Positions 1-51,664 of a stretch of 64,000 nucleotides of DNA are shown here, in pieces (the first letter of the stretch is position 1; each line of letters starts with the position of its first letter). This DNA is from Azolla caroliniana (lineage: Eukaryota; Plantae; Polypodiophyta): contig JBHGNT010000009.1 in NCBI GenBank assembly GCA_043228905.1, positions 21,142,001 to 21,206,000 on the forward strand. Direction: 5' to 3'. The notes beneath the pieces were generated by a model. That model searched no databases and was not told where the DNA came from. It saw only the letters and a program-made list of their open reading frames with translations. Made by a program: the position numbers and the translations under genes.

Positions 1-108
1 CTACTATTTTGAACTACTCTCATATGTAATAGAAATTCTGTTTTCATATTTCCATCTCTGCAGTTGTAACTCTATATACCTATCTACTCGATTCTCAATA
101 TTTCTAAT

Positions 109-2867
109 ATAACTAATATACAATGACGATTCCTCCTCATCATCCTCGGATGTACCAATCAGTGCATTATCTTCGTCATAAAGCAAATGGTTTGACTCTA
201 GATTATATGTAGCAGATCTCGTTTGCCTTTGACTCGAGCCACCTTGTAGACCTGGTAATTTTTCTTTTATTATATCTATTGTTGACTTAATCGTCCGGCT
301 TTTGTAAGTGTGAAGTCGTACACGATGATATCCACATCAGAGATATCAAGGGTCGAGGTGTTACGAATGTTTCGCTTCCTCTTCCTACCTCCCCTTCTTG
401 TTTGGCATTCAATCATCTCCAATGTATACTTACCTGTAAAAGCATTTGCACTTCTAGTGTTGTACCAATGAACATTTATAGACTTGATCGTGTTTTCTAT
501 TTCATGCATTAGCACTTCTAGAATTTTACCAACCCAAAATTGGTGGCCATGTGAGTTCTCATCAGCCGGCGTTGCAATCAACATCCCCGCGGTGAGCTCT
601 TGCAAATTTCCTTGCCATCTAGCTTCGGCTGCTTTGGTCATCCTTGGTCCCACATAAATGTCTCTTTGTTGTGGATGGACCAAGCTGTCATTAATCGCAT
701 TTACTAGTCGCTCCGGACTTCTATTTACGCGATCATGTTGCAGCGACCATGTGAATGGCGTTTCCAAATTCCAATTATCAACAGATACACAATTGTCTAT
801 AATTTCTTTCTGATCACTATAAAATACATCCCACCATGACGTGTCTTGTTGTGCGGCATATTTCTTGGCGGCCTCAATATGCTTTCTTTTTTCTTCTAAG
901 GCTTGGAGCCATGACCGTTTTTGTTCTGATACCAAGTCGCTCTGCAACTGTCCTTTCTTCTCAATTGGCATTTGCTTAGCTCCATGGACAATTGTACTCG
1001 GCATACAAAGTAATAATTGGCAACCACCTTCAGGTTCCCATGTTGTAGAAGATGAATATTGTTTAGCATACAAAAGTGTAGAACCACTTATTCCATTTTT
1101 CTTTATCAAAAAAATGTGATTGAAACTTATATTGTTTAACTGAGCAAGCACTTTAACATTCCCACCACCCCCATCTAATATATATCTCTTAAAGTCATAT
1201 ACCTCCTTCAAGTGTAACACTTTTGGGCGTGGTGTATATGCATCACAAATGACATCAAATAGTTTAGGTAAAGTGAAAGCATCATGCCGAGACAACTGTC
1301 TGGAGAATGTGCTAAACATCTGATCTATATGGTCATGTGTGTGGCCAACCAAAAGGAAATTGACTTTCACTTTCCTAAACAATTCTAGGTTGACCAACAT
1401 ACTTAGATAGCCAAATACAGTTGAATTTTTGTTCTCTCTAGCAGTATTGTCCAATTGAATGTATAGAACAGGGGGGAAAGGTTGTCCCCAAGACATCAAA
1501 ACTCGGTGAATCACTGTAACTGTTAGGTTAGGGTCATTGTGAACATTGGGGTAAGTAATGAAGACGTGAGGTCGAACAGACCTATTATAAGCCAAGCATC
1601 CCACCAAGTGCATTTGAACAAGGCACTCATCATTGACATCTTTGGGGAGCCTCCGCATATGCGGCAAGCATGTCTTCTTCTGGTCCATGCCATCTATCAT
1701 TAAGCACATGTATTGTTCAGGCCTCTTCAAACACTTCTCTCTATGATGCATCGCCTTCCTTCGTTCTAAGGATTGTGCCTCACGATGCTCTTGTAGTAAC
1801 TTCTTACTCGTATCCTTTTCCATTGATGTCTTTGCACCTTTAGCCAAACTTTTAAGATTTGCACAAATGGAGCAATACCCCATACGTACTTTACGAGGAA
1901 TAATAACATTTGAAAACCGAGCTCTCCATAATCTTGTGAATTGGCTATAGGTGATAGACTTATTACGTGAGCGTAGCATTTCAGATCGATAGACATCATA
2001 AACTTCCCGACGGGTATAATTATCAGAAAGATGCATCCTACCTGTAGTGGGCATTACTTCACAATTTAACTGAAAGTAAGTTTTCATCCAGCCAATAGCT
2101 AGTCTTCCAATTGCACCTTTCATACTTGGAACCTCTTTACAATTGAGCATCTGATCCCCGCTAAGTAGACGTTGTTGTACTCTATGTAGCCGCATGTTAC
2201 TAACACATAACGCAATTTTGAATGCAACTCTACATATCTGTTGCGCATGGAAGATATAATACTCGAATGATACTTTGATCCCCGTACATTTGTCAGATAC
2301 TAGTTGCATATGTGATCCGAGGTAAGTGTCTTGCTCATCACCGGTCATCGAAAAATAGTATCGCCTTAATTCTCGCAACTTTGATTTTCCAATCATAGAC
2401 ATACAACCACGGGCACAACATATTTTGTTGACATCAAATCCAATCTGTTTATCTGATGTCACCAAGCTAAATCTAGCCAGACGAATTCTTCGTGGGATTC
2501 TTCTAATATGCATAGGGCTCCCAGATTTCTCTTCCTACATAGAGGTTGCTGTAACCTTGTTAAAGTCTAATTCTCTGTTCTGACCATCGCCAATGTTATT
2601 CAATGTTTCCTGGGCACTTCCTTCATTCTCGGTATCTTTATTAATATCGTATTCTTCAATAGAGAACTCTTCACATGTGTCATTATTTACATTCCCTGTA
2701 GATGAGCTCAAACAATATTCTTCGATAGAATATGGTGAGTCGGTCGAAAGACAATATTGTTCAATCGAATATGGTGACTCTGTTGACAAACAATACTCTT
2801 CAGTAAAAAACGATGGGTCTGATGACAAACAATATTCTTCAATCGAGAACGGTGAATCTTCACTCAT
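109..2867 (-). pseudogene. Sola-like DDD transposase (DUF7869-like), copy A, inverted
   Basis: Near-identical to 6132-8912. Motifs CCARGC, CSICANLK, IDGMDQKK, LDNTARENKN, FLLVGHTHDHIDQMFS. CAG>TAG stop at 2535-2537, 4-bp deletion frameshift near 288, homology ends near 109. Confidence 0.8.
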
Positions 2868-3538
2868 GGCTTAAGGTCTAGATAGGGCTCTCTAAGTTAT
2901 ACTCCTCTCTAACCATATACTCCTCCCTAAACATAAACTTCTCTCTAAACAAAAGCCAAATCAATAGAATGTCTATATTATGTGATATTCTATTAATACA
3001 ATACATCTAAAAATTATTTTTAATAAAGTAATTTAACTTAAATTATCAATCATTATATAAACTAGATCTAAATGATGTTAAATCAAGTAAAATATAAAAC
3101 TAATCATTAACAAGCCTTGAATATGTTGGATTAATGTTAAAATCATTGGCTAATTAATGACACCCATTTTGATATAGAACGTCTCACTCATTGGTTCTTT
3201 AATGCTCACCATTTTAAATATTAGACTTATCAATCATTGGTTAATTCATGCCCACATCTTTAATACATAACATTTGAGAGTCATAAAAATTGTTGCTTTT
3301 AGTAATCAATCATTGGTACATTCATGAACCTCTATCATTGTCTCCTTCATAACCTTTGAAGTGATTGTAGGTTGTTATGACTATAAAAGATTGATCAATA
3401 TGTTAGTTTGACTTTGTAATCATTAATACAATCATAAGTTACTCTAGTTAATGTGACTATGGTTACCAACTAACTATCCTCAAAGTTACCAACATTGGTT
3501 AAGGTGACTATGGTTACTTTAACCATGGGTTCAATCCC

Positions 3539-3730
3539 TATAAATAGGAAGACCTCATCATATTTCACTCACCAGAGCGTACAGAGCGTACAGAGCACAC
3601 AGAACGCAAAGAGCACACAAAGCACACAAAGCACTCAGAGCACAAAGCACGAAAGCGCGATCTCCGCCTCCACTTCAACACGATCAACCATGTCTTCAAA
3701 GAGAATCGAGCGCGAGGACTCCAGGTAGGC
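3539..3730 (+). promoter_or_regulatory. TATA promoter, 5' UTR and orphan exon 1 of gene 3 (copy A)
   Basis: TATAAATA 3539-3546, 9-bp CAGAGCACA-type UTR repeats, ATG 3690, MSSKRIEREDS, then AG|GTAGGC donor at 3725. Confidence 0.6.
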
Positions 3731-3774
3731 CTCTGACACTGTCGACATTTTTGTAAATATGTTTCGTTTCTCAA

Positions 3775-3900
3775 GAACTCGATACGGCGTATCGAGTTCA
3801 TGTATACAATAAAAATATTTATACACGAACTCGATACGGCGTATCGAGTTCGTGTTTAAAACCTACACTTTAAACCGGAACTCGATACGCGTATCCGGTT
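3775..3900. repeat. Short palindrome array (2 intact units, 1 degenerate)
   Basis: GAACTCGATACG-G-CGTATCGAGTTC centred at 3787 and 3839; degenerate third unit ~3875-3900. Confidence 0.95.
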
Positions 3901-3937
3901 CTTCCACCACGAGTATTTAGATGTGAAACAAAAGTTT

Positions 3938-5385
3938 CGCCGAATCTGCATCTTCGTAGTCAAATCGTAGAATACGGCCATACATAAATGGGGTTTCTTT
4001 TCCAAGCTGCCCCTCACCCTTCTTCTTTGTTGTATACAATACGACTTTTTTCTTTGAGTCGACATATTGCATACACCATTCGTTGTCCGTTAGATCTCGG
4101 TCAGGAAGGTCTTCGCCTCCAGTAGTGGCTAACATCACTATGGGGCTGAGATTTTGTCTCTTCGTTAAAGAGAAGCTTTTTTCCTCTCTTCATGGTCTCC
4201 GGAGTTACCTTGGTCTGGGCTTCGATTGGAGAACCTTGTATGCGAAGCTTAATTTTCTTCACGGGTCGGTCTGACAGATTCGCAAACGACCTATTTAAGA
4301 AAGTATATGCAAAAACATAAGTTAGATAGTTACGTAGATTGAAGTTGTTATTATAATGAAGAACAGTTTCTAGGAGCAGTAACATATTCAAAAATCTATT
4401 CTAGTCAGGGCTATTCAACCTAAAAAATATATATCGTAATAAGTAAAACGGGTTATATATTCTTTTAAATAGTAGGTATGACTTATATAGATTCTAAACC
4501 TATATTGATGAGAATTTGCCATAGTGAATGCAATTTGTAGATCATTCTCTACTATTTTAAGCTAAAGTAGGTCAAAAAACACCTATAATTAGAGCATGTA
4601 TTTGTTTAGAAGTAAGTAAACTCAACATAAAAAGACTTATTTTGACAGACAATTTGATAACATTTCTACCCCGTAAACGATTTTTGTCTCTCAAAGGCTA
4701 CACTTTAAACACGAACTCGATACGGCGTATCGAGTTCGTGTTTAAAGTTTGAATTTTAAACACGAACTCGATACGGCGTATCGAGTTCGTGTTTAAAGTA
4801 TAGGTTTTAAACACGAACTCGATACGGCGTATCGAGTTCATGTTTAAAATTCAAACTTTAAACACGAACTCGATACGGCGTATCGAGTTCGTGTTTAAAA
4901 CCTATACTTTAAACACGAACTCGTTACGTCGTATCGAGTTCGTGTTTAAAACCTTTACTTTAAACACGAACTCGATACGCCGTATCGAGTTCGTGTTTAA
5001 AACCTATACTTTAAACACGAACTCGATACGCCGTATCGAGTTCGTGTTTAAAAGGTAAGTTTTAAACACGAACTCGATACGGCGTATCGAGTTCGTGTTT
5101 AAAACCTACACTATGAACACGAACTGGATACGCCGTATCGAGTTCATGTTTAAAACCTATACTTTAAACACGAACTCGATACGGCGTATCGAGTTCATGT
5201 ATACAATACAAATATTTACACACGAACTCGATACGCCGTATCGAGTTCGTGTATAAATATTTGTATTGTATACATGAACTTGATACGCCGTATCGAGTTC
5301 TTGGGAAACGAAACATATTTACAAAAATGTCCACAGTGTTAGAGGCCTACCTGGACTCCTCGCGCTCGACTCTCTTGGAAGACAT
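3938..5385 (-). pseudogene. Gene 3: divergently transcribed gene of unknown function (exon 1 5385-5351, intron 5350-4291, exon 2 from 4290, truncated at ~3938)
   Basis: TATA at 5519-5526 (minus), ATG 5385, phase-2 GTAGGC donor, CTAAC branch-like motif plus T-rich tract and TAG acceptor at 4291. Splicing gives in-frame MSSKRVEREESRSFANLSDRPVKKIKLR...; probable frameshift near 4140 into ...EWCMQYVDSKKKVVLYTT... Confidence 0.6.
4702..5300. repeat. Tandem array of 12 palindromes TTTAAACACGAACTCGATACG-N-CGTATCGAGTTCGTGTTTAAA
   Basis: Centres at 4725, 4776, 4827, 4878, 4929, 4980, 5031, 5082, 5133, 5184, 5236, 5288 (51-52 bp period). Short linkers occur in both orientations. Confidence 0.97.
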
Positions 5386-6131
5386 GGTTGATCGTGTTGT
5401 GTGGAGGCGGAGATCGCGCTTTCGTGCTTTGTGCCTTGAGTGCTCTGTGTGCTCTGTGTGCTCTGAGTGCTCTGTACACTCTGTACGCTCTGGTGAGTGA
5501 AATATGATGAGGTCTTCCTATTTATAGGGATTGAACCCATGGTTAAAGTAACCATAGTCATCTTAACCAATGTTGGTAACTTTGAGGATAGTTAGTTTGT
5601 AACCATAGTCACATTAACTATAGTAACTTATGATTGTATTAATGATTACAAAGTCAAACTAACATATTGATCAATCTTTTATACTCATAACAACCTACAA
5701 TCACTTCAAAGGTTATGAAGGAGACAATGACAGAGGTTCATGAATGTACCAATGATTGATTACTAAAAGCAAATTTTTTTATGACTCTCAATAGTTATGT
5801 ATTAAAGATGTGGGCATGAATTAACCAATGATTGATAAGTCTAATATTTAAAATGGTGAGCATTAAAGAATCAATGAGTGAGACGTTCTATATCAAAATG
5901 GGTGTCATTAATTAGCCAATGATTTTAACATTAATCCAACATATTCAAGGCTTGTTAATGATTAGTTTTATATTTTACTTGATTTAACATCATTTAGATC
6001 TAGTTTATATAATGATTGATAATTTAACATTCTATTGATTTGGCTTTTGTTTAGAGAGAAGTTTATGTTTAGGGAGGAGTATATGGTTAGAGAGGAGTAT
6101 AACTTAGAGAGCCCTATCTAGACCTTAAGCC

Positions 6132-8912
6132 ATGAGTGAAGATTCACCGTTCTCGATTGAAGAATATTGTTTGTCATCAGACCCATCGTTTTCTACTGAA
6201 GAGTATTGTTTATCAACAGAGTCACCATATTCGATTGAAGAATATTGTCTTTCGACCGACTCACCATATTCTATCGAAGAATATTGTCTGAGCTCATCTA
6301 CAGGGAATGCAAATAATGACACATGTGAAGAGTTCTCTATTGAAGATTACGATATTAATAAAGATACCGGGAATGAAGGAAGTGCCCAGGAAACATTGAA
6401 AAACATTGGCGATGGTCAGAACAGAGAATTAGACTGTAACATGGTTACAGCAACCTCTATCCAGGAAGAGAAATCTGGGAGCCCTATGCATATTAGAAGA
6501 ATCCCACGAAGAATTCGTCTGGCTAGATTTAGCTTGGTGACATCAGATAAACAGATTGGATTTGATGTCAACAAAATATGTTGTGCCCGTAGTTGTATGT
6601 CTATGATTGGAAAATCAAAGTTGCGAGAATTAAGGCGATACTATTTTTCGATGACCGGTGATGAGCAAGACACTTACCTCGGATCACATATGCAACTAGT
6701 ATCTGACAAATGTACGGGGATCAAAGTATCATTCGAGTATTATATCTTCCATGCGCAACAGATATGTAGAGTTGCATTCAAAATTGTGTTATGTGTTAGT
6801 AACATGCGGCTACATAGAGTACAACAACGTCTACTTAGCGGGGATCAGATGCTCAATTGTAAAGAGGTTCCAAGTATGAAAGGTGCAATTGGAAGACTAG
6901 CTATTGGCTGGATGAAAACTTACTTTCAGTTAAATTGTGAAGTAATGCCCACTACAGGTAGGATGCATCTTTCTGATAATTATACCCGTCGGGAAGTTTA
7001 TGATGTCTATCGATCTGAAATGCTGGGCTCACGTAATAAGTCTATCACCTATAGCCAATTCACAAGATTATGGAGAGCTCGGTTTTCAAATGTTATTATT
7101 CCTCGTAAAGTACGTATGGGTTATTGCTCCATTTGTGCAAATCTTAAAAGTTTGGCTAAAGGTGCAAAGACATCAATGGAAAAGGATACGAGTAAGAAGT
7201 TACTACAAGAGCATCGTGAGGCACAATCCTTAGAACGAAGGAAGGCGATGCATCATAGAGAGAAGTGTTTGAAGAGGCCTGAACAATACATGTGCTTAAT
7301 GATAGATGGCATGGACCAGAAGAAGACATGCTTGCTGCATATGCGGAGGCTCCCCAAAGATGTCAATGATGAGTGCCTTGTTCAAATGCACTTGGTGGGA
7401 TGCTTGGCTTATAATAGGTATGTTCGACCTCACGTCTTCATTACTTACCCCAATGTTCACAATGACCCTAACCTAACAGTTACAGTGATTCACCGAGTTT
7501 TGATGTCTTGGGGACAACCTTTCCCCCCTGTTCTATACATTCAATTGGACAATACTGCTAGAGAGAACAAAAATTCAACTGTATTTGGCTATCTAAGTAT
7601 GTTGGTCAACCTAGAATTGTTTAGGAAAGTGAAAGTCAATTTCCTTTTGGTTGGCCACACACATGACCATATAGATCAGATGTTTAGCACATTCTCCAGA
7701 CAGTTGTCTCGGCATGATGCTTTCACTTTACCTAAACTATTTGATGTCATTTGTGATGCATATACACCACGCCCAAAAGTGTTACACTTGAAGGAGGTAT
7801 ATGACTTTAAGAGATATATATTAGATGGGGGTGGTGGGAATGTTAAAGTGCTTGCTGAGTTAAACAATATAAGTTTCAATCACATTTTTTTGATAAAGAA
7901 AAATGGAATAAGTGGTTCTACACTTTTGTATGCTAAACAATATTCATCTTCTACAACATGGGAACCTGAAGGTGGTTGCCAGTTATTACTTTGTATGCCG
8001 AGTACAATTGTCCATGGAGCTAAGCAAATGCCAATTGAGAAGAAAAGATAGTTGCAGAGCGACTTGGTATTAGAACAAAAACGGTCATGGCTCCAAGCCT
8101 TAGAAGAAAAAAGAAAACATATTGAGGCCGCCAAGAAATATGCCGCACAACAAGACACGTCATGGTGGGATGTATTTTATAGTGATCAAAAAGAAATTAT
8201 AGACAATTGTGTATCTGTTGATAATTGGAATTTGGAAACGCCATTCACATGGTCGCTGCAACATGATCGCGTAAATAGAAGTCCGGAGCAACTAGTAAAT
8301 GCGATTAATGACAGCTTGGTCCATCCACAACAAAGAGACATTTATGTGGGACCAAGGATGACCAAAGCAACCGAAGCTAGATGGCAAGGAAATTTGCAAG
8401 AGCTCACCGCGGGGATGTTGATTGCAACGCCGGCTGATGAGAACTCACATGGCCACCAATTTTGGGTTGGTAAAATTCTAGAAGTGCTAATGCATGAAAT
8501 AGAAAACACGATCAAGTCTATAAATGTTCATTGGTACAACACTAGAAGTGTAAATGCTTTTACAGGTAAGTATACATTGGAGATGATTGAATGCCAAACA
8601 AGAAGGGGAGGTAGGAAGAGGAAGCGAAACATTCGTAACACCTCGACCCTTGATATCTCTGATGTGGATATCATCGTGTACGACTTCACACTTACAAAAG
8701 CCGGACGATTAAGGAAGTCAACAATAGATATAATAAAAGAAAAATTACCAGGTCTACAAGGTGGCTCGAGTCAAAGGCAAACGAGATCTGCTACGTATAA
8801 TCTAGAGTCAAACCATTTGGTTTATGACGAAGATAATGCACTGATTGGTACATCCGAGGATGATGAGGAGGAATCGTCATTGTATATTAGTTATAGTAGT
8901 GATTCTCCGTAA
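6132..8912 (+). pseudogene. Sola-like DDD transposase (DUF7869-like), copy B; 926 aa if the stop is read as Gln
   Basis: One frame broken only by TAG at 8049-8051 (CAG in copy A). N-terminal 13-aa repeats, Cys motifs, putative catalytic Asp residues in IDGMDQ / LDNTARENKN / GHTHDHID, basic NLS-like RRGGRKRKR. Confidence 0.82.
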
Positions 8913-9314
8913 AGGAGTGATCATGAATGTATATTTGGCTATTAAGTGTAACTACATTCCGCTTGTAACAAATCGAGTAATATAAAATCATGTGTTTTGA
9001 ATTCTTATGATTTCCCAAAAATCGTTTCTTATAAAATAACATTGGTTGTAAAGTTTGTGATATAAATTGAGAATGTATGTTTTTGAAATTCGTCTTTTTT
9101 TAGTTACTTCTAAATCACGAAAATAGTGGATTTTTAAGCTTTTTCATAGTATGTTTGAACTTGTATGATACTGGTATCAATGTGTTTTGTAAAATCATTG
9201 AAAAACCCCTAAAATTTCCCTTCTCCTTCCATTTATGCGCGATCCTTCCACTTGTGAACGCGAACGTGTTTATCCAAAGTCCAGTCAAGACCAGTCAAGA
9301 AGAAGACAACGAAA

Positions 9315-11918
9315 ATGTCGGATACGGATTCAACAAGTGAAAATGAAGAAGAGGATAATAAGGGGACGCCAGGAGCCGAGCTGGCCTCGGGTGTCTTGTC
9401 ATCCGAGCAGAATAAAATAAGGAGAGAGTTAATGCAACGGAAGCTGGTCAGGAAAGGGCAAGTATTTAATTTGCCTATAACACACATCCATCGGCCCCCT
9501 ATTGATGAAAAAACAGGTTGAAGACCACTTGAGATTAGAGAGCCTCATCGCATGCATGTTCAAAATCTCAAGAAAAAAATGAAAATTAATCCTCATGCCA
9601 CTGTGGTGCCTTTTATTGTTATGGTGGATCCTGAAGAATGTGAAACCATTGAAGATTTTGATATCAGAAAGCATGATCAATATAATTATTTTGTCATTGG
9701 TGGATCGCATTCAGCAGAGGCACGTCGGCAACTTGTGAGAGAACATCCAACCACTTTCTTCTTCAAGTATGCTGAGTGCAAAATTTATGTTGGGCTCACA
9801 ACCGAAGAGGCTAAGCTGTTGGCATGGGACCATAATAATGATAATGACTATCGGCAGAAAATGTCGTCTATTGAGCGTATACGGTTCTTCCACCACGAGT
9901 ATTTAGATGTGAAACAAAAGTTTGGTGTGAAGTTACATCCAGGCCTTCGACGTCAATGTCTGCATGAAGTCGGCATTGTGGTAGATGATAATGTTAGGTC
10001 CGATGGTCTTCGAAAGTATGAGTCTTGGTTTCAATTGGCGTTTAGAGATGGAGAAGTATGGGACCTCCAAGATCAAATATTCTCAATGTGGGAGAATAAG
10101 GAGGTAAAGGGTCAACGACAAAAGAAATGTAGGGTTGACCCTCAACTAGAATTAAAGTCACAAGCCGCCAAGAAATTTGACTTGACAATTGAAGAAGCGG
10201 CAGACAACATGAAGCTGTCTCTATGGAGAGCGATGCAAGGTATTAAGGACGAGCAGCTTCTTGTGTCGGTTTTGTCAAGGGTTGTGGCGAAAGATTTAAG
10301 CCTTGAAGAAATGGTCACCGAGTTCAATAAGTAAGTCTTTCAAATACTGAAATTGTAGTCTATCTGGTGTAATTCAAAGTTCTAATCTTGATTTCTAATT
10401 TTACAGTCATAAGGTGTACATGAAGATCCAAGAAGTTATGATGAAACAACTTGGATGTATAACTTGGGAACAAGTGACCGAGGATTATCCTCTAACGTCT
10501 TCGTATAAGGCGTTATCAGAGTATTTTATTGCATTCAAGGATTGGGTTAGTATTCATGTTTTTTCATTACCCTTTCATCATATGTAGAGCTTGTATAATA
10601 ATACCTGATGTTCTATTGCTTCTATTAGAAACCGTGTCGAGGCAAGAAACAAGGAGAAGTTAAGGATATACACGATTTCCCTACATCCTTCCTTGCACAT
10701 CTCGAGCGAGCCAGAAAAGAAAAGGATCGTCGCTTAGTCAAGGCGTACGAAATGGAGGAAGATGGCTCGTTAAAAAAATTTAGCCACAAAAAAGATATTA
10801 CGAGAGATCTTTACTACAATGTGGTTTGCGGTGATGTCATCGACTTGATCCAGAAGGTGCCAAAGAAGGAATATACGCTAATGATTGCGGATATTCCTTA
10901 CGGATTTCGAATGGCTGGGTCATCATACGACGATGAACCGTTTAGGTTTAAACAATTGGAGAAGATGGTCAAGGATTTCGCTGAGCTAACGACCGCATCC
11001 TTGTGGCGAATAGTTGTCTTTCATAGTATGGACCAAGGGTACTCGGTAGCTCAAGCTTTGAGATCTCGTTGCCATGGCATCGAGAACCTTGCATGGTAAG
11101 GATTATTTATAGGTGTCTTTCATTATATTGCAATTCTTAAGGTTGTTGAATCTATTCTTAACTCGATGAATTATTTTTTATAGGATCAAGACCAATGTAA
11201 ATAGAGGTCCAACTTTTCGGTTCGTTAATGCCATTGAATACATAACGGTTGGCTACTTCGATGACATTAAGAAACAGAGAATCAAAGAGCATTCTAATGA
11301 AGTGGGAGGTTCAAATCTGTTGGTATATCCAGCAGTGACTCGGAAATTGTGACATGTCACCACGACAGAACGGGGACTTGTCAACCCATACCAAAAACCT
11401 CAACGACTTATGATGCGCTTGATCGAGATGTTTTCTGTCGAAGGAGACTGGATATTAGATCTCTTTTCTGGCACAGGTATTCCTCGAACTAGGGTAACGA
11501 TCTTGAGATAACCAATCACTTTTTTTTCGTTTGACAACTAAATCTTCTTGTTACTTACATCATAGGAACTACGTCAGCATGTGCATTGAAGCTGTTTAGA
11601 AATACAGTTGCATTGGAGAAGGACGAGGACCAAGTTATATTTATTAATATGCGGATTAAGGCTTTGTGGGAGTGCCCAGACCAGGATGAGGAGGTCGGTG
11701 CAAAGAACCTCGCCAATACAGAAAGGTTTCAACCTGCTTCACGAGAGCCTATTCCTCCGTTAGCCGGCGAACCGGGGGAGCTAATAGAGCTTGATGATGA
11801 GCTTATAGAAGATATTTCGTTGGCTCGGCTAACAGGGGAAACCAATGCACGTATAGCCGAAGAGAGTTCTACACAAGATGATGAAGAAAATGACGTTGAT
11901 GAATTGATTGCTATGTAA
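9315..11918 (+). pseudogene. ParB/Srx-like domain fused to beta-class N6-adenine/N4-cytosine DNA methyltransferase (5 exons, ~755 aa)
   Basis: Exons 9315-10330, 10407-10545, 10629-11095, 11184-11476, 11566-11918 with GT-AG introns keep one frame (2268 nt). ParB-like YFVIGGSHSAEARRQL and LTTEEAKLLA. MTase motif IV IADIPYG precedes NPYQKP..L and motif I WILDLFSGTGTTS..ALKLFRNTVALEKD. In-frame TGA at 9519-9521 and 11350-11352. Confidence 0.85.
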
Positions 11919-50100: not shown

Positions 50101-51664
50101 GCTGCCAACCAATTTTAGTTCGATACTTGGGAATAGATGATCATAAATAAAGATCTCAAATGTTTGTTGATGGAAACAAATCAAATGAATGGATTTGTGC
50201 CAACATCCTTTCACTAATTGTACTAACTTAATTAGGACAATTTGTTAAGGATTCCCCTTAAATGATATACCACAAGAATATGACGTATTTGTCTACAAGA
50301 CTTGCATATCTACCCATAACCTGGCTTGATCAATGTACGAATCTCTTATCTTTAGAGGAATAGGAAATATTTGAAGGTTACAATGGAAACTCCTTCATAA
50401 ATTGTGCTTGCAACAGAAAAGCATGTCTGATTAAGAAAAGTGATGCAAAGAAGTTATCGCAAAAGTGTTGAATCAAGCATGATGTGAAGGATACTCTTCC
50501 TAACTCATCTTTACCTCTGTCCTACTTTAATTTAATAACAAACAAATCCCAATAATGTTATAAAATGGATCATTCTGGAAAAAACACTAGTATACTATGT
50601 TATAGAAACCCCTTCAAAAAGTTTATTTCCTCAACTATAATGAATCCAATAAAGAACATATTCAAATGTCACAATCCATACATCTATCCATTGATGCAAA
50701 TAATGCATCATCTATAGCACCAAAAGGACACAATAAAAAGGGCAAGACAATAATAATCAAAGCCAATCAAATAATGTAATGTCATTTTGCTAGGAAAATA
50801 GTGTTGTACATACAAGTTACTTTCGTAAAGATGTGTTTTTATGAGAAAAATATGTGCACATCATGAGCTTCATTGTATAATCATCTTTGAATTGCATCGT
50901 TTTCAACCCTTGGGTTGTGGATTGTGGATTTGTAAAACTAGTTTTTTGACGTGAAAAGTGATGTGTACCACCATATGTTGAACCCAAAAAACTTGAATTT
51001 TACGACGAACATTTAAGCATAACATCAGACACATTACATTCGACTTGAACTCGCATCGTAAGCTCATAAAGCATAATAGTTGCCTCTACCTATATGTTTA
51101 ATGTGAATGCTTGGACATTGTGATTTAGAACATAATATCATGGTCTTTTAGGGTTCGCTCCCCATCCGTGCTGTGTTTAGGGTATGCATTAAGCCTCTGA
51201 GTGGGTACACATCCACGCATTTGCATTAAAAGTGTCCATCCAATGTGTGTGTTAAGGTCACCATATTAGGCTATCTTGTGGTTATTCTCATCTATGATGT
51301 TCCGATAATCAAATTCGACACAAGTCTTCAGTGTTCTCTTCGACTCTTTTCACACATGGTGTCACTTCCTCGACACTATCGGTTGGGAGGAACACTTCTC
51401 GTGTGGCCTACATGACATGAGATACAGATGAAGTGGCAAAGGAAATGTATTGAGTAAGAGTAAATATAGGTCACATACCACACCAAACATGTGTTAGGTT
51501 ACAGTCATTAAGATAAAAAGAGATTATAATTAGCAACTAATCATCCGAATCTCTATTAGGTTAAGTTAATTGCTCGTGATTAGTGAAAGGAGAAGCGTAA
51601 TGAAATAATCATTGGAGAAACTGGTTTAGAACCTCATGAACCAATCCGGAATTCCTCGGTTTGG

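What the first reader, a model, noticed from the sequence alone, without database searches (positions are those of the whole stretch)
3938..11918. Candidate new system: transposon module with Sola-like transposase, ParB-fused amino-DNA methyltransferase and a palindrome array
Seen: three tightly linked genes (gene 3 leftward; transposase then ParB-MTase rightward, 402 bp apart) and 12 perfect palindromes. Copy C repeats the transposase plus the intergenic spacer up to the MTase promoter. Known: ParB/Srx domains load at palindromic parS sites and slide as CTP-dependent clamps. Beta-class amino-MTases are prokaryote-type enzymes that are rare in plants (co-opted eukaryotic examples include bdelloid N4CMT and Marchantia 4mC MTases). 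Sola elements are usually described as transposase-only. Inference: an autonomous element that writes its own 6mA/4mC mark, possibly loaded at its own palindromes, to evade host 5mC silencing or to license transposition.
Basis: partly seen in the sequence, partly recalled or inferred. Interest (0 to 1): 0.93.

Follow-up and report, generated by a model that had tools for sequence, protein, structure and literature searches.

The report
Fern transposon carrying own DNA methylase
This is a scrambled nest of three dead copies of a many-copy cut-and-paste transposon of fern-like plants that carries a bacterial-style ParB-plus-DNA-methylase gene and a row of evenly spaced palindromes that this protein likely binds and methylates to control the element, a design reported in algae in 2025 but not found described for land plants.

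Summary
There are two genes, not three: 'gene 3' is the inverted 5' part of the ParB-methylase gene. The '402-bp spacer/promoter' is the transposon's end, a 36-bp terminal inverted repeat (TIR) found at 9235-9270, 12934-12969 and 16207-16242. The locus is best read as three nested, broken copies. Intact relatives are 7.6-7.8 kb TIR elements (AACAC...GTGTT; a 4-bp target duplication shown at one site). Their transposase and ParB-methylase genes lie head to head in 13 of 13 informative contigs, with palindromes between them. The 23-bp palindrome units are spaced at multiples of about 10.3 bp and lie in the predicted first intron of the methylase gene. The ParB fold, beta-class methylase motifs (invariant DIPY) and strong purifying selection are shown; binding and methylation are inferred. 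The design is in print for the brown alga Ectocarpus (Sola1-1_Ec32) and, with arrays, for red-algal Plavaka elements; my searches found no land-plant report. Ectocarpus has almost no 5mC, which weakens the anti-5mC idea. This scan found the same family twice before, on other pieces of this genome.

The parts
3938..4290 (-). 'Gene 3': 5' part of exon 1 of the ParB-methylase gene of the inner copy (about 120 codons, one frameshift), cut off at 3938
   Evidence: tblastn to intact first-exon protein P0002, residues 13-176; contig loose ends continue in frame
4291..5350 (-). Predicted intron 1 of the ParB-methylase gene; holds the palindrome array
   Evidence: GT donor at 5350 and AG acceptor at 4291 join in frame; same layout in relatives; no RNA evidence
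4714..5299 (.). Array of 12 palindromic 23-bp units, 51-52 bp apart, in mixed orientation; candidate ParB-methylase binding sites
   Evidence: consensus AAHTCGATRC-N3-GYATCGADTT over 220 units in 35 arrays
5351..5385 (-). Predicted 35-nt first coding exon of the ParB-methylase gene
   Evidence: short phase-2 exon found in 14 of 16 sequences tested
5520..5526 (-). TATA box of the methylase gene, at the edge of the shared promoter region 5400-6130
   Evidence: sequence
6132..8912 (+). Transposase of the inner copy (A): DUF7869, RNase H-like fold, conserved D395/D476/D518; in-frame stop at 8049-8051
9235..9270 (.). TIR, right end of the inner copy, joined directly to the middle of a methylase exon
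9271..11918 (+). 3' part of the ParB-methylase gene of the middle copy; predicted exons 9271-10330, 10407-10545, 10629-11095, 11184-11476, 11566-11918; stops at 9519 and 11350
   Evidence: ParB fold
12934..12969 (.). TIR at the methylase end of the middle copy, joined to the transposase upstream region of copy C
12970..16242 (+). Copy C: right part of the outer copy (transposase 13104-15884 with the same stop as A; TIR 16207-16242), abutting a Gypsy-type retrotransposon ORF at 16243
104..3901 (-). Copy B: inverted copy of 5172-8899 (transposase 104-2867 with a stop and a frameshift, promoter, first exon, remnant array at 3776-3900); likely the left part of the middle copy
3889..3937 (+). 49-bp filler copied from the ParB exon (9875-9923) at the deletion joint, with microhomology to the palindrome

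Best explanation
This is a nest of three dead copies of a 7.6-7.8 kb Sola1-like cut-and-paste transposon of fern-like plants, whose second gene encodes a ParB-fold DNA-binding domain fused to a beta-class amino-methylase that likely binds the palindrome array in its own predicted first intron and likely methylates adenines there. The likely purpose is a self-recognition feedback loop that keeps the shared head-to-head promoter of both genes usable. Shown: TIRs, a 4-bp target duplication at one site, gene order, conservation and helical phasing of the array, folds, motifs and purifying selection. Inferred: splicing, dimeric binding of the array, 6mA rather than 4mC, and the direction of the effect on transcription.
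For: Head-to-head transposase in 13 of 13 contigs with at least 1.5 kb upstream of a near-complete methylase exon, all 13 with the palindrome; 24 of 25 with at least 600 bp upstream have it. Motif density 213 in 87 kb upstream against 16 in 241 kb downstream, 12 of those 16 in a nested copy. Complete elements L026, L029 and L033 are 7594-7805 bp. A 4-bp gap at the joint of the L029 flanks against an empty homologous target in L024. ParB/Noc/KorB are the best structural matches, across the N-terminal and helical DNA-binding parts (Foldseek E 4.5e-5; VIA Z 10.3, rmsd 2.9 over 100 residues with PadC; Z 8.4, rmsd 3.9 over 194 with pNOB8 ParB). ADIPYG is invariant in 10 of 10 aligned exons; PF01555 hits exon 4. 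dN 0.02-0.10 against pS 0.24-0.90 in two methylase exons. Spacings peak at 30-33, 39-43, 50-53, 63 and 72 bp, best period 10.2-10.4 bp; 0 of 5000 uniform draws reach the phasing score. Transposase and ParB distances correlate over 12 elements (rho 0.52, 2 of 2000 permutations) and the trees share three groups. Same hypothesis proposed for algal elements.
Against: No binding, methylation or expression data. Symmetric covariation of unit positions 3/21 (110 of 134 paired, 44 expected) and 9/15 (122 of 134, 66 expected) can arise from gene conversion between oppositely oriented units, and the units are related, so it is not independent proof of protein binding. The phasing votes are also not independent; a conservative four-class estimate gives about 0.01. 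The 4-bp duplication was seen in 1 of 4 complete elements (the contigs are collapsed multi-copy assemblies). Motif IV is DIPY, not canonical DPPY, and this domain has switched between 6mA and 4mC repeatedly (PMC8885841 passage). An in-frame acceptor was not evident in 4 of 16 sequences, and no good first exon in 2 of 16. Several contigs show only 1-2 units (L023, L026, L028, L033), possibly collapsed.
Confidence: 0.5

Rival explanations
1. The protein is mainly a negative or timing control: a KorB-like autorepressor bound in its own first intron, with methylation of the symmetric site coupling transposition to the brief hemimethylated state after replication, as Dam does for IS10 (recalled).
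For: The array sits about 300 bp downstream of the methylase TATA box, a roadblock position. KorB, a ParB-family repressor, is the second structural hit (Z 9.3, rmsd 11.8 over 144 residues). The site is symmetric, with A16 invariant in 134 of 134 distinct units. This works without host 5mC, as Ectocarpus requires.
Against: No expression data; a plain repressor would not need a conserved catalytic domain; A/T positions are less mutable than CpG, so the invariance of A16 is weak evidence.
Confidence: 0.22
2. The module is a dedicated shield against host 5mC silencing, a methylase-based analogue of the VANC proteins of Arabidopsis VANDAL transposons.
For: VANC binds tandem-repeat targets in its own element and removes DNA methylation (PMC5735166 abstract). 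Ferns have heavy CG/CHG methylation in repeats (PMC9477723 passages). The family is abundant, and the core contains CpGs on both arms.
Against: The same design persists in Ectocarpus, which has negligible 5mC. The stops in these copies look like C-to-T changes in CG/CAG contexts (partly inferred), so protection was at best incomplete here.
Confidence: 0.15
3. The array is read by the transposase, or is a hairpin-prone by-product of concerted evolution, and the methylase acts elsewhere, for example broadly on host chromatin.
For: Arms are perfect over up to 22 bp; covariation keeps symmetry rather than sequence; the transposase has extra predicted N- and C-terminal domains.
Against: The array is internal, shows no likeness to the TIRs, sits in the methylase gene's intron in every informative copy, is helically phased, and red-algal ParB genes in an unrelated superfamily also lie beside inverted-repeat arrays.
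Confidence: 0.1
4. The mark gives target immunity, preventing insertion of the element into itself.
For: Self-marking could in principle do this (inference).
Against: Two of the three TIR junctions in the window are insertions into other copies, and L011, L035 and L038 show the same.
Confidence: 0.03

Closest known systems
Sola1-1_Ec32 of the brown alga Ectocarpus (PMC12477816; passages and supplement rows seen)
   Same: Sola1 TIR transposon; accessory gene on the opposite strand encoding a ParB-like domain plus an N4C/N6A methyltransferase; AAC...GTT ends; 4-bp target duplication; self-modification proposed.
   Different: 21.5 kb with a 282-bp TIR and 2 intact copies, against 7.6-7.8 kb with a 33-36-bp TIR and high copy number here; host lacks 5mC; no palindrome array is mentioned in the main text ('palindrom' 0 hits); sequence homology to this family was not tested.
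Plavaka (EnSpm) elements of the red alga Bostrychia, PAG2 and PAG3 (bioRxiv 10.1101/2025.02.11.637652; passages)
   Same: Transposon-borne PF01555 methylase and ParB-like protein; tandem arrays of inverted repeats beside the ParB gene; self-binding proposed.
   Different: Different superfamily; the methylase is fused to SET and ParB to a 2OG oxygenase, on separate genes; 17-19 kb.
Bacterial ParB/Noc/KorB with palindromic parS, NBS or operator sites
   Same: Fold of the N-terminal and helical DNA-binding parts; clustered palindromic sites beside the gene.
   Different: Box II arginines replaced; fused to a methylase and to an N-terminal beta-rich domain; spliced; no ParA; CTP use untested.
VANDAL/VANC anti-silencing system of Arabidopsis (PMC5735166; abstract and section list)
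   Same: Plant TIR transposon with an accessory protein that targets tandem motifs in its own non-coding DNA.
   Different: Unrelated protein, causes loss of 5mC rather than writing a mark; its targets vary fast, whereas this core is conserved across subfamilies 50-90% alike.
Domesticated amino-methylases N4CMT (bdelloids, PMC8885841) and MpDN4MT1 (Marchantia, bioRxiv 10.1101/2021.02.12.428880); passages
   Same: Beta-class PF01555 enzymes in eukaryotes.
   Different: Host genes with SPPY, making 4mC; no ParB domain; not carried by a transposon.

Membership tests
Sola (Sola1) DNA transposons | Terminal inverted repeats | tested here: met
   33-36 bp TIRs at both ends of L026, L029, L033, L057
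Sola (Sola1) DNA transposons | 4-bp target site duplication | tested here: met
   L029 against the empty target in L024; 1 of 4 complete elements, the other three uninformative or negative
Sola (Sola1) DNA transposons | RNase H-fold transposase with a conserved acidic triad | tested here: met
   D395 in 96%, D476 in 98%, D518 in 100% of 45 sequences; top Foldseek hits IstA, TnsB, Mos1, weak (best E 2.5e-3)
Sola (Sola1) DNA transposons | Sequence homology to curated Sola1 transposases rather than Sola2/3 | not testable with these tools
   No Repbase or Sola profile on hand; DUF7869 has 0 papers; ends resemble AACCG-CGGTT of Sola1-1_Ec32
Beta-class DNA amino-methyltransferases (PF01555) | Motif IV before the target-recognition region and motif I (FxGxG) | tested here: met
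   DIPY in exon 3, FSGTG at the end of exon 4; PF01555 above cut-off; nearest solved structures TTHA0409-like 2zie, M.RsrI, CcrM and a 4mC enzyme
Beta-class DNA amino-methyltransferases (PF01555) | Methylates DNA at N6-A or N4-C | not testable with these tools
   Needs biochemistry or native long reads
ParB/Srx CTP clamps | ParB N-terminal fold followed by a helical DNA-binding domain | tested here: met
ParB/Srx CTP clamps | GxxRxxA arginine-rich CTP-binding box (recalled) | tested here: not met
   GSHSAEAR in ferns, GCHSVEAR in Ginkgo, GNHSACAR in Calypogeia; works-like-ParB binding is not excluded
ParB/Srx CTP clamps | Loads at cognate palindromic sites | not testable with these tools
   Linkage and phasing only
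Sola1-1_Ec32-type elements (ParB-methylase accessory gene) | ParB-methylase fusion gene on the strand opposite the transposase inside the TIRs | tested here: met

The most novel reading that the evidence does not exclude
Land plants carry a transposon-encoded, sequence-specific 6mA writer: a ParB-type clamp that loads at helically phased palindromes in its own first intron and methylates them at hundreds of loci per genome, forming a private epigenetic switch. It has travelled with Sola-type elements since before land plants (the fusion protein is also in Chara, liverworts, a lycophyte and Ginkgo) and could account for real, localised 6mA in fern genomes.
Probability: 0.3. Interest if true: 0.85.

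Novelty: new member of a known kind. Interest (0 to 1): 0.5.

Why it matters
Transposon-borne ParB-methylases have been noted in algae only as predictions. This family makes the idea testable: it is compact and abundant, has intact members, and supplies a defined candidate site (a 23-bp consensus with subfamily variants) at a defined place (predicted intron 1, beside the shared promoter). If the enzyme marks its own array, it is a transposon-owned epigenetic circuit in vascular plants, a source of non-5mC DNA methylation there, and a possible sequence-specific methylation tool.

Tried and rejected
No host genome is held, so copy number and target duplications could not be counted genome-wide. 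No RNA holder listed. Scans with the methylase alignment found no relative in viral contigs or in prokaryote genomes; both used two narrow peptide patterns, so they do not exclude a prokaryotic source. The ESM Atlas gave no usable hit for the N-terminal domain and only DUF7869 clusters for the transposase. The N-terminal domain (residues 63-182) matched the M18BP1 SANTA domain at Z 5.8 (rmsd 4.3, 100 aligned) and PH-like folds at Z about 4.5: too weak to name. Pfam does not detect the ParB part. Rejected: a Helitron/Replitron end hairpin or a recombinase cassette array (the repeated motif is a true TIR); a TTAA target or a split AA|TT target (flanks vary); 'gene 3' as a separate gene; the A/C similarity as evidence of a fourth part. 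Linkage of methylase and transposase outside the fern-like contigs (Chara, Riccia, Ginkgo) could not be tested: cluster listings gave no neighbouring locus tags. The look-up of notes near this place returned nothing.
Full report
Setting. The window is plant nuclear DNA rich in LTR retrotransposon pieces, with a PPR gene. The nearest named relatives of both genes are from the fern Ceratopteris (72% over the ParB exon; 55% for the transposase), so the host is likely a fern; this is an inference. No genome is held.

Observation. Six of 12 units are perfect over 20-bp arms and 9 of 12 over the 23-bp core; the core has no match elsewhere in the window. 'Gene 3' is not a gene. Intact homologues begin with its sequence and continue into the sequence at 9273 onward: residues 13-176 map to 3920-4424 on the minus strand and residues 241-593 to 9273-10331 on the plus strand. 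Contigs of two runs run on past 3939 into the missing methylase codons.

Ends and history of the locus. A 36-bp motif occurs at 9235-9270, 12934-12969 and 16207-16242. It is the TIR: related contigs carry it inverted at both ends. Its three junctions lead into a methylase exon, into the transposase upstream region, and into a Gypsy-type ORF. The simplest reading (inferred) is a nest. The outer copy is C. The middle copy is B plus 9271-12969. The inner copy is 3938-9270. A deletion with a 49-bp filler (3889-3937) removed the parts in between. A and C share 18 differences from B, including the stop at 8049; 14 differences are private to A and 24 to C. C starts exactly where A has a private 65-bp deletion, so they share local history. 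Every gene here is broken.

The intact element. A scan of metagenome contigs found 152 relatives, of which 80 were kept. Of 13 contigs with at least 1.5 kb upstream of a near-complete methylase exon, 13 have the transposase head to head and 13 have the palindrome (10 with two or more units); 24 of 25 with at least 600 bp upstream have it. Complete elements are L026, L029 and L033 (7594-7805 bp) and the deleted L057, with three TIR subfamilies, all AACAC...GTGTT or nearly so. The L029 flanks align to an empty homologous target in L024 with a 4-bp gap at the joint. The other three complete elements show no duplication; they are collapsed multi-copy contigs. Four runs lay 1,843-11,352 contigs on the 9-kb stretch. 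Summed depth in run X3 is 26,000-133,000, against 88-127 for near-identical contigs of the PPR gene. The tool warns that this is no copy number; it suggests hundreds of copies. Transposase and ParB distances correlate over 12 elements (rho 0.52, 2 of 2000 permutations), and the two trees share three groups but differ at weak nodes.

The proteins. The transposase has D395, D476 and D518 in 96-100% of 45 aligned sequences. Its model (pLDDT 74) matches RNase H-fold transposases only weakly (best E 2.5e-3). The first-exon model of the second protein (pLDDT 67) matches ParB, Noc, PadC, KorB and sulfiredoxin, across both the nucleotide-binding and helical parts. The Box II arginines are replaced, so a CTP clamp is not established. 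The C-terminal part is a beta-class amino-methylase with invariant ADIPYG and FSGTG. D in motif IV favours N6-adenine, but specificity has switched often in this domain (PMC8885841, passages). Two methylase exons from six loci show dN 0.02-0.10 against pS 0.24-0.90. Proteins with both the ParB part and the methylase part occur in Chara, Riccia, Adiantum and Ginkgo, with partial matches in Ceratopteris, Calypogeia and Diphasiastrum. DUF7869 transposases occur in Chara, Riccia, Adiantum and Ceratopteris, but linkage there is untested.

The array. 220 units in 35 arrays give the consensus AAHTCGATRC-N3-GYATCGADTT. Variable positions stay complementary (3/21: 110 of 134 distinct units, 44 expected; 9/15: 122, 66 expected), but the units are kin and inverted gene conversion could produce this. 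The 183 spacings cluster at 30-33, 39-43, 50-53, 63 and 72 bp, best period 10.2-10.4 bp. With one vote per locus and spacing class (84 votes), 0 of 5000 uniform draws reach the score; counting only four independent classes gives about 0.01. That is the pattern expected for proteins bound on one face of the helix. A 26-38-nt phase-2 first exon downstream of the promoter precedes the array in 14 of 16 sequences tested, and an in-frame acceptor follows it in 12 of 16. The array therefore lies in the predicted first intron of the methylase gene; no RNA confirms this.

Mechanism. Most likely the fusion protein binds its own array as phased dimers and methylates adenines there, acting as a feedback switch on the shared promoter (0.5). 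Rivals are autorepression or replication timing (0.22), a dedicated anti-5mC shield like VANC (0.15; PMC5735166, abstract), an array read by something else (0.1), and target immunity (0.03; self-insertions are common).

What is known. PMC12477816 (passages; supplement rows) describes Sola1-1_Ec32 of Ectocarpus: a ParB-like plus N4C/N6A methyltransferase gene opposite the transposase, AACCG-CGGTT ends, a 4-bp duplication, self-modification proposed, in a host with negligible 5mC. It cites Iyer 2011 (not seen) for green algae. The Bostrychia preprint (passages; its supplements are closed and may hold array details) reports ParB genes beside inverted-repeat arrays in Plavaka elements. Iyer 2016 (PMC4738411, passages) and a survey of active plant TIR elements (PMC12973397, passages) do not mention this family in what I saw. 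Searches found no land-plant report; subscription journals and Repbase were not searchable. The general definition of Sola is recalled.

Verdict. A new land-plant member of a recently noted, untested kind. The array's consensus, helical phasing and intron position were not found in print and make it testable. Interest 0.5.

Noticed in passing
window 21285-22712 (+): Two ORFs of a likely spliced gene; the second resembles natterin-like, aerolysin-type pore-forming proteins (4zno, E 8.7e-6). Aerolysin-like genes are known from ferns and lycophytes (PMC9477723 passages).
   Followed up: partly
window 51587-53725 (+): PPR gene with an in-frame stop at 53003-53005, where three of four runs read another base, and a 9-bp insertion at 52978 in three runs; a pseudogene allele or an assembly difference.
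   Followed up: partly
L011:3280-5883: An element of another TIR subfamily is inserted in the methylase gene; it shows a TIR and a 12-unit array, with no transposase hit in the stretch held.
   Followed up: partly
L035:3960, L038:4040: TIR ends joined directly to the inside of transposase genes, the same kind of self-insertion as in the window.
   Followed up: partly
window 6132-6290: The transposase N-terminus holds 3.5 copies of a 39-bp repeat (a 13-residue serine/acidic unit), predicted disordered.
   Followed up: no
window 5620-5940 and 3141-3263: Repeated CCAAT-like units of about 46 bp between the two gene starts, a possible bidirectional promoter.
   Followed up: no
P0001 residues 63-182 (window 3938-4290): Confidently folded beta-rich N-terminal domain of unknown kind; weak match to the SANTA domain of centromere protein M18BP1 (Z 5.8).
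   Followed up: partly
P0145-P0155: A more distant group (about 30-47% identity) appears to encode the whole methylase domain in one ORF, also with ADIPYG; useful for expression, host not named.
   Followed up: partly
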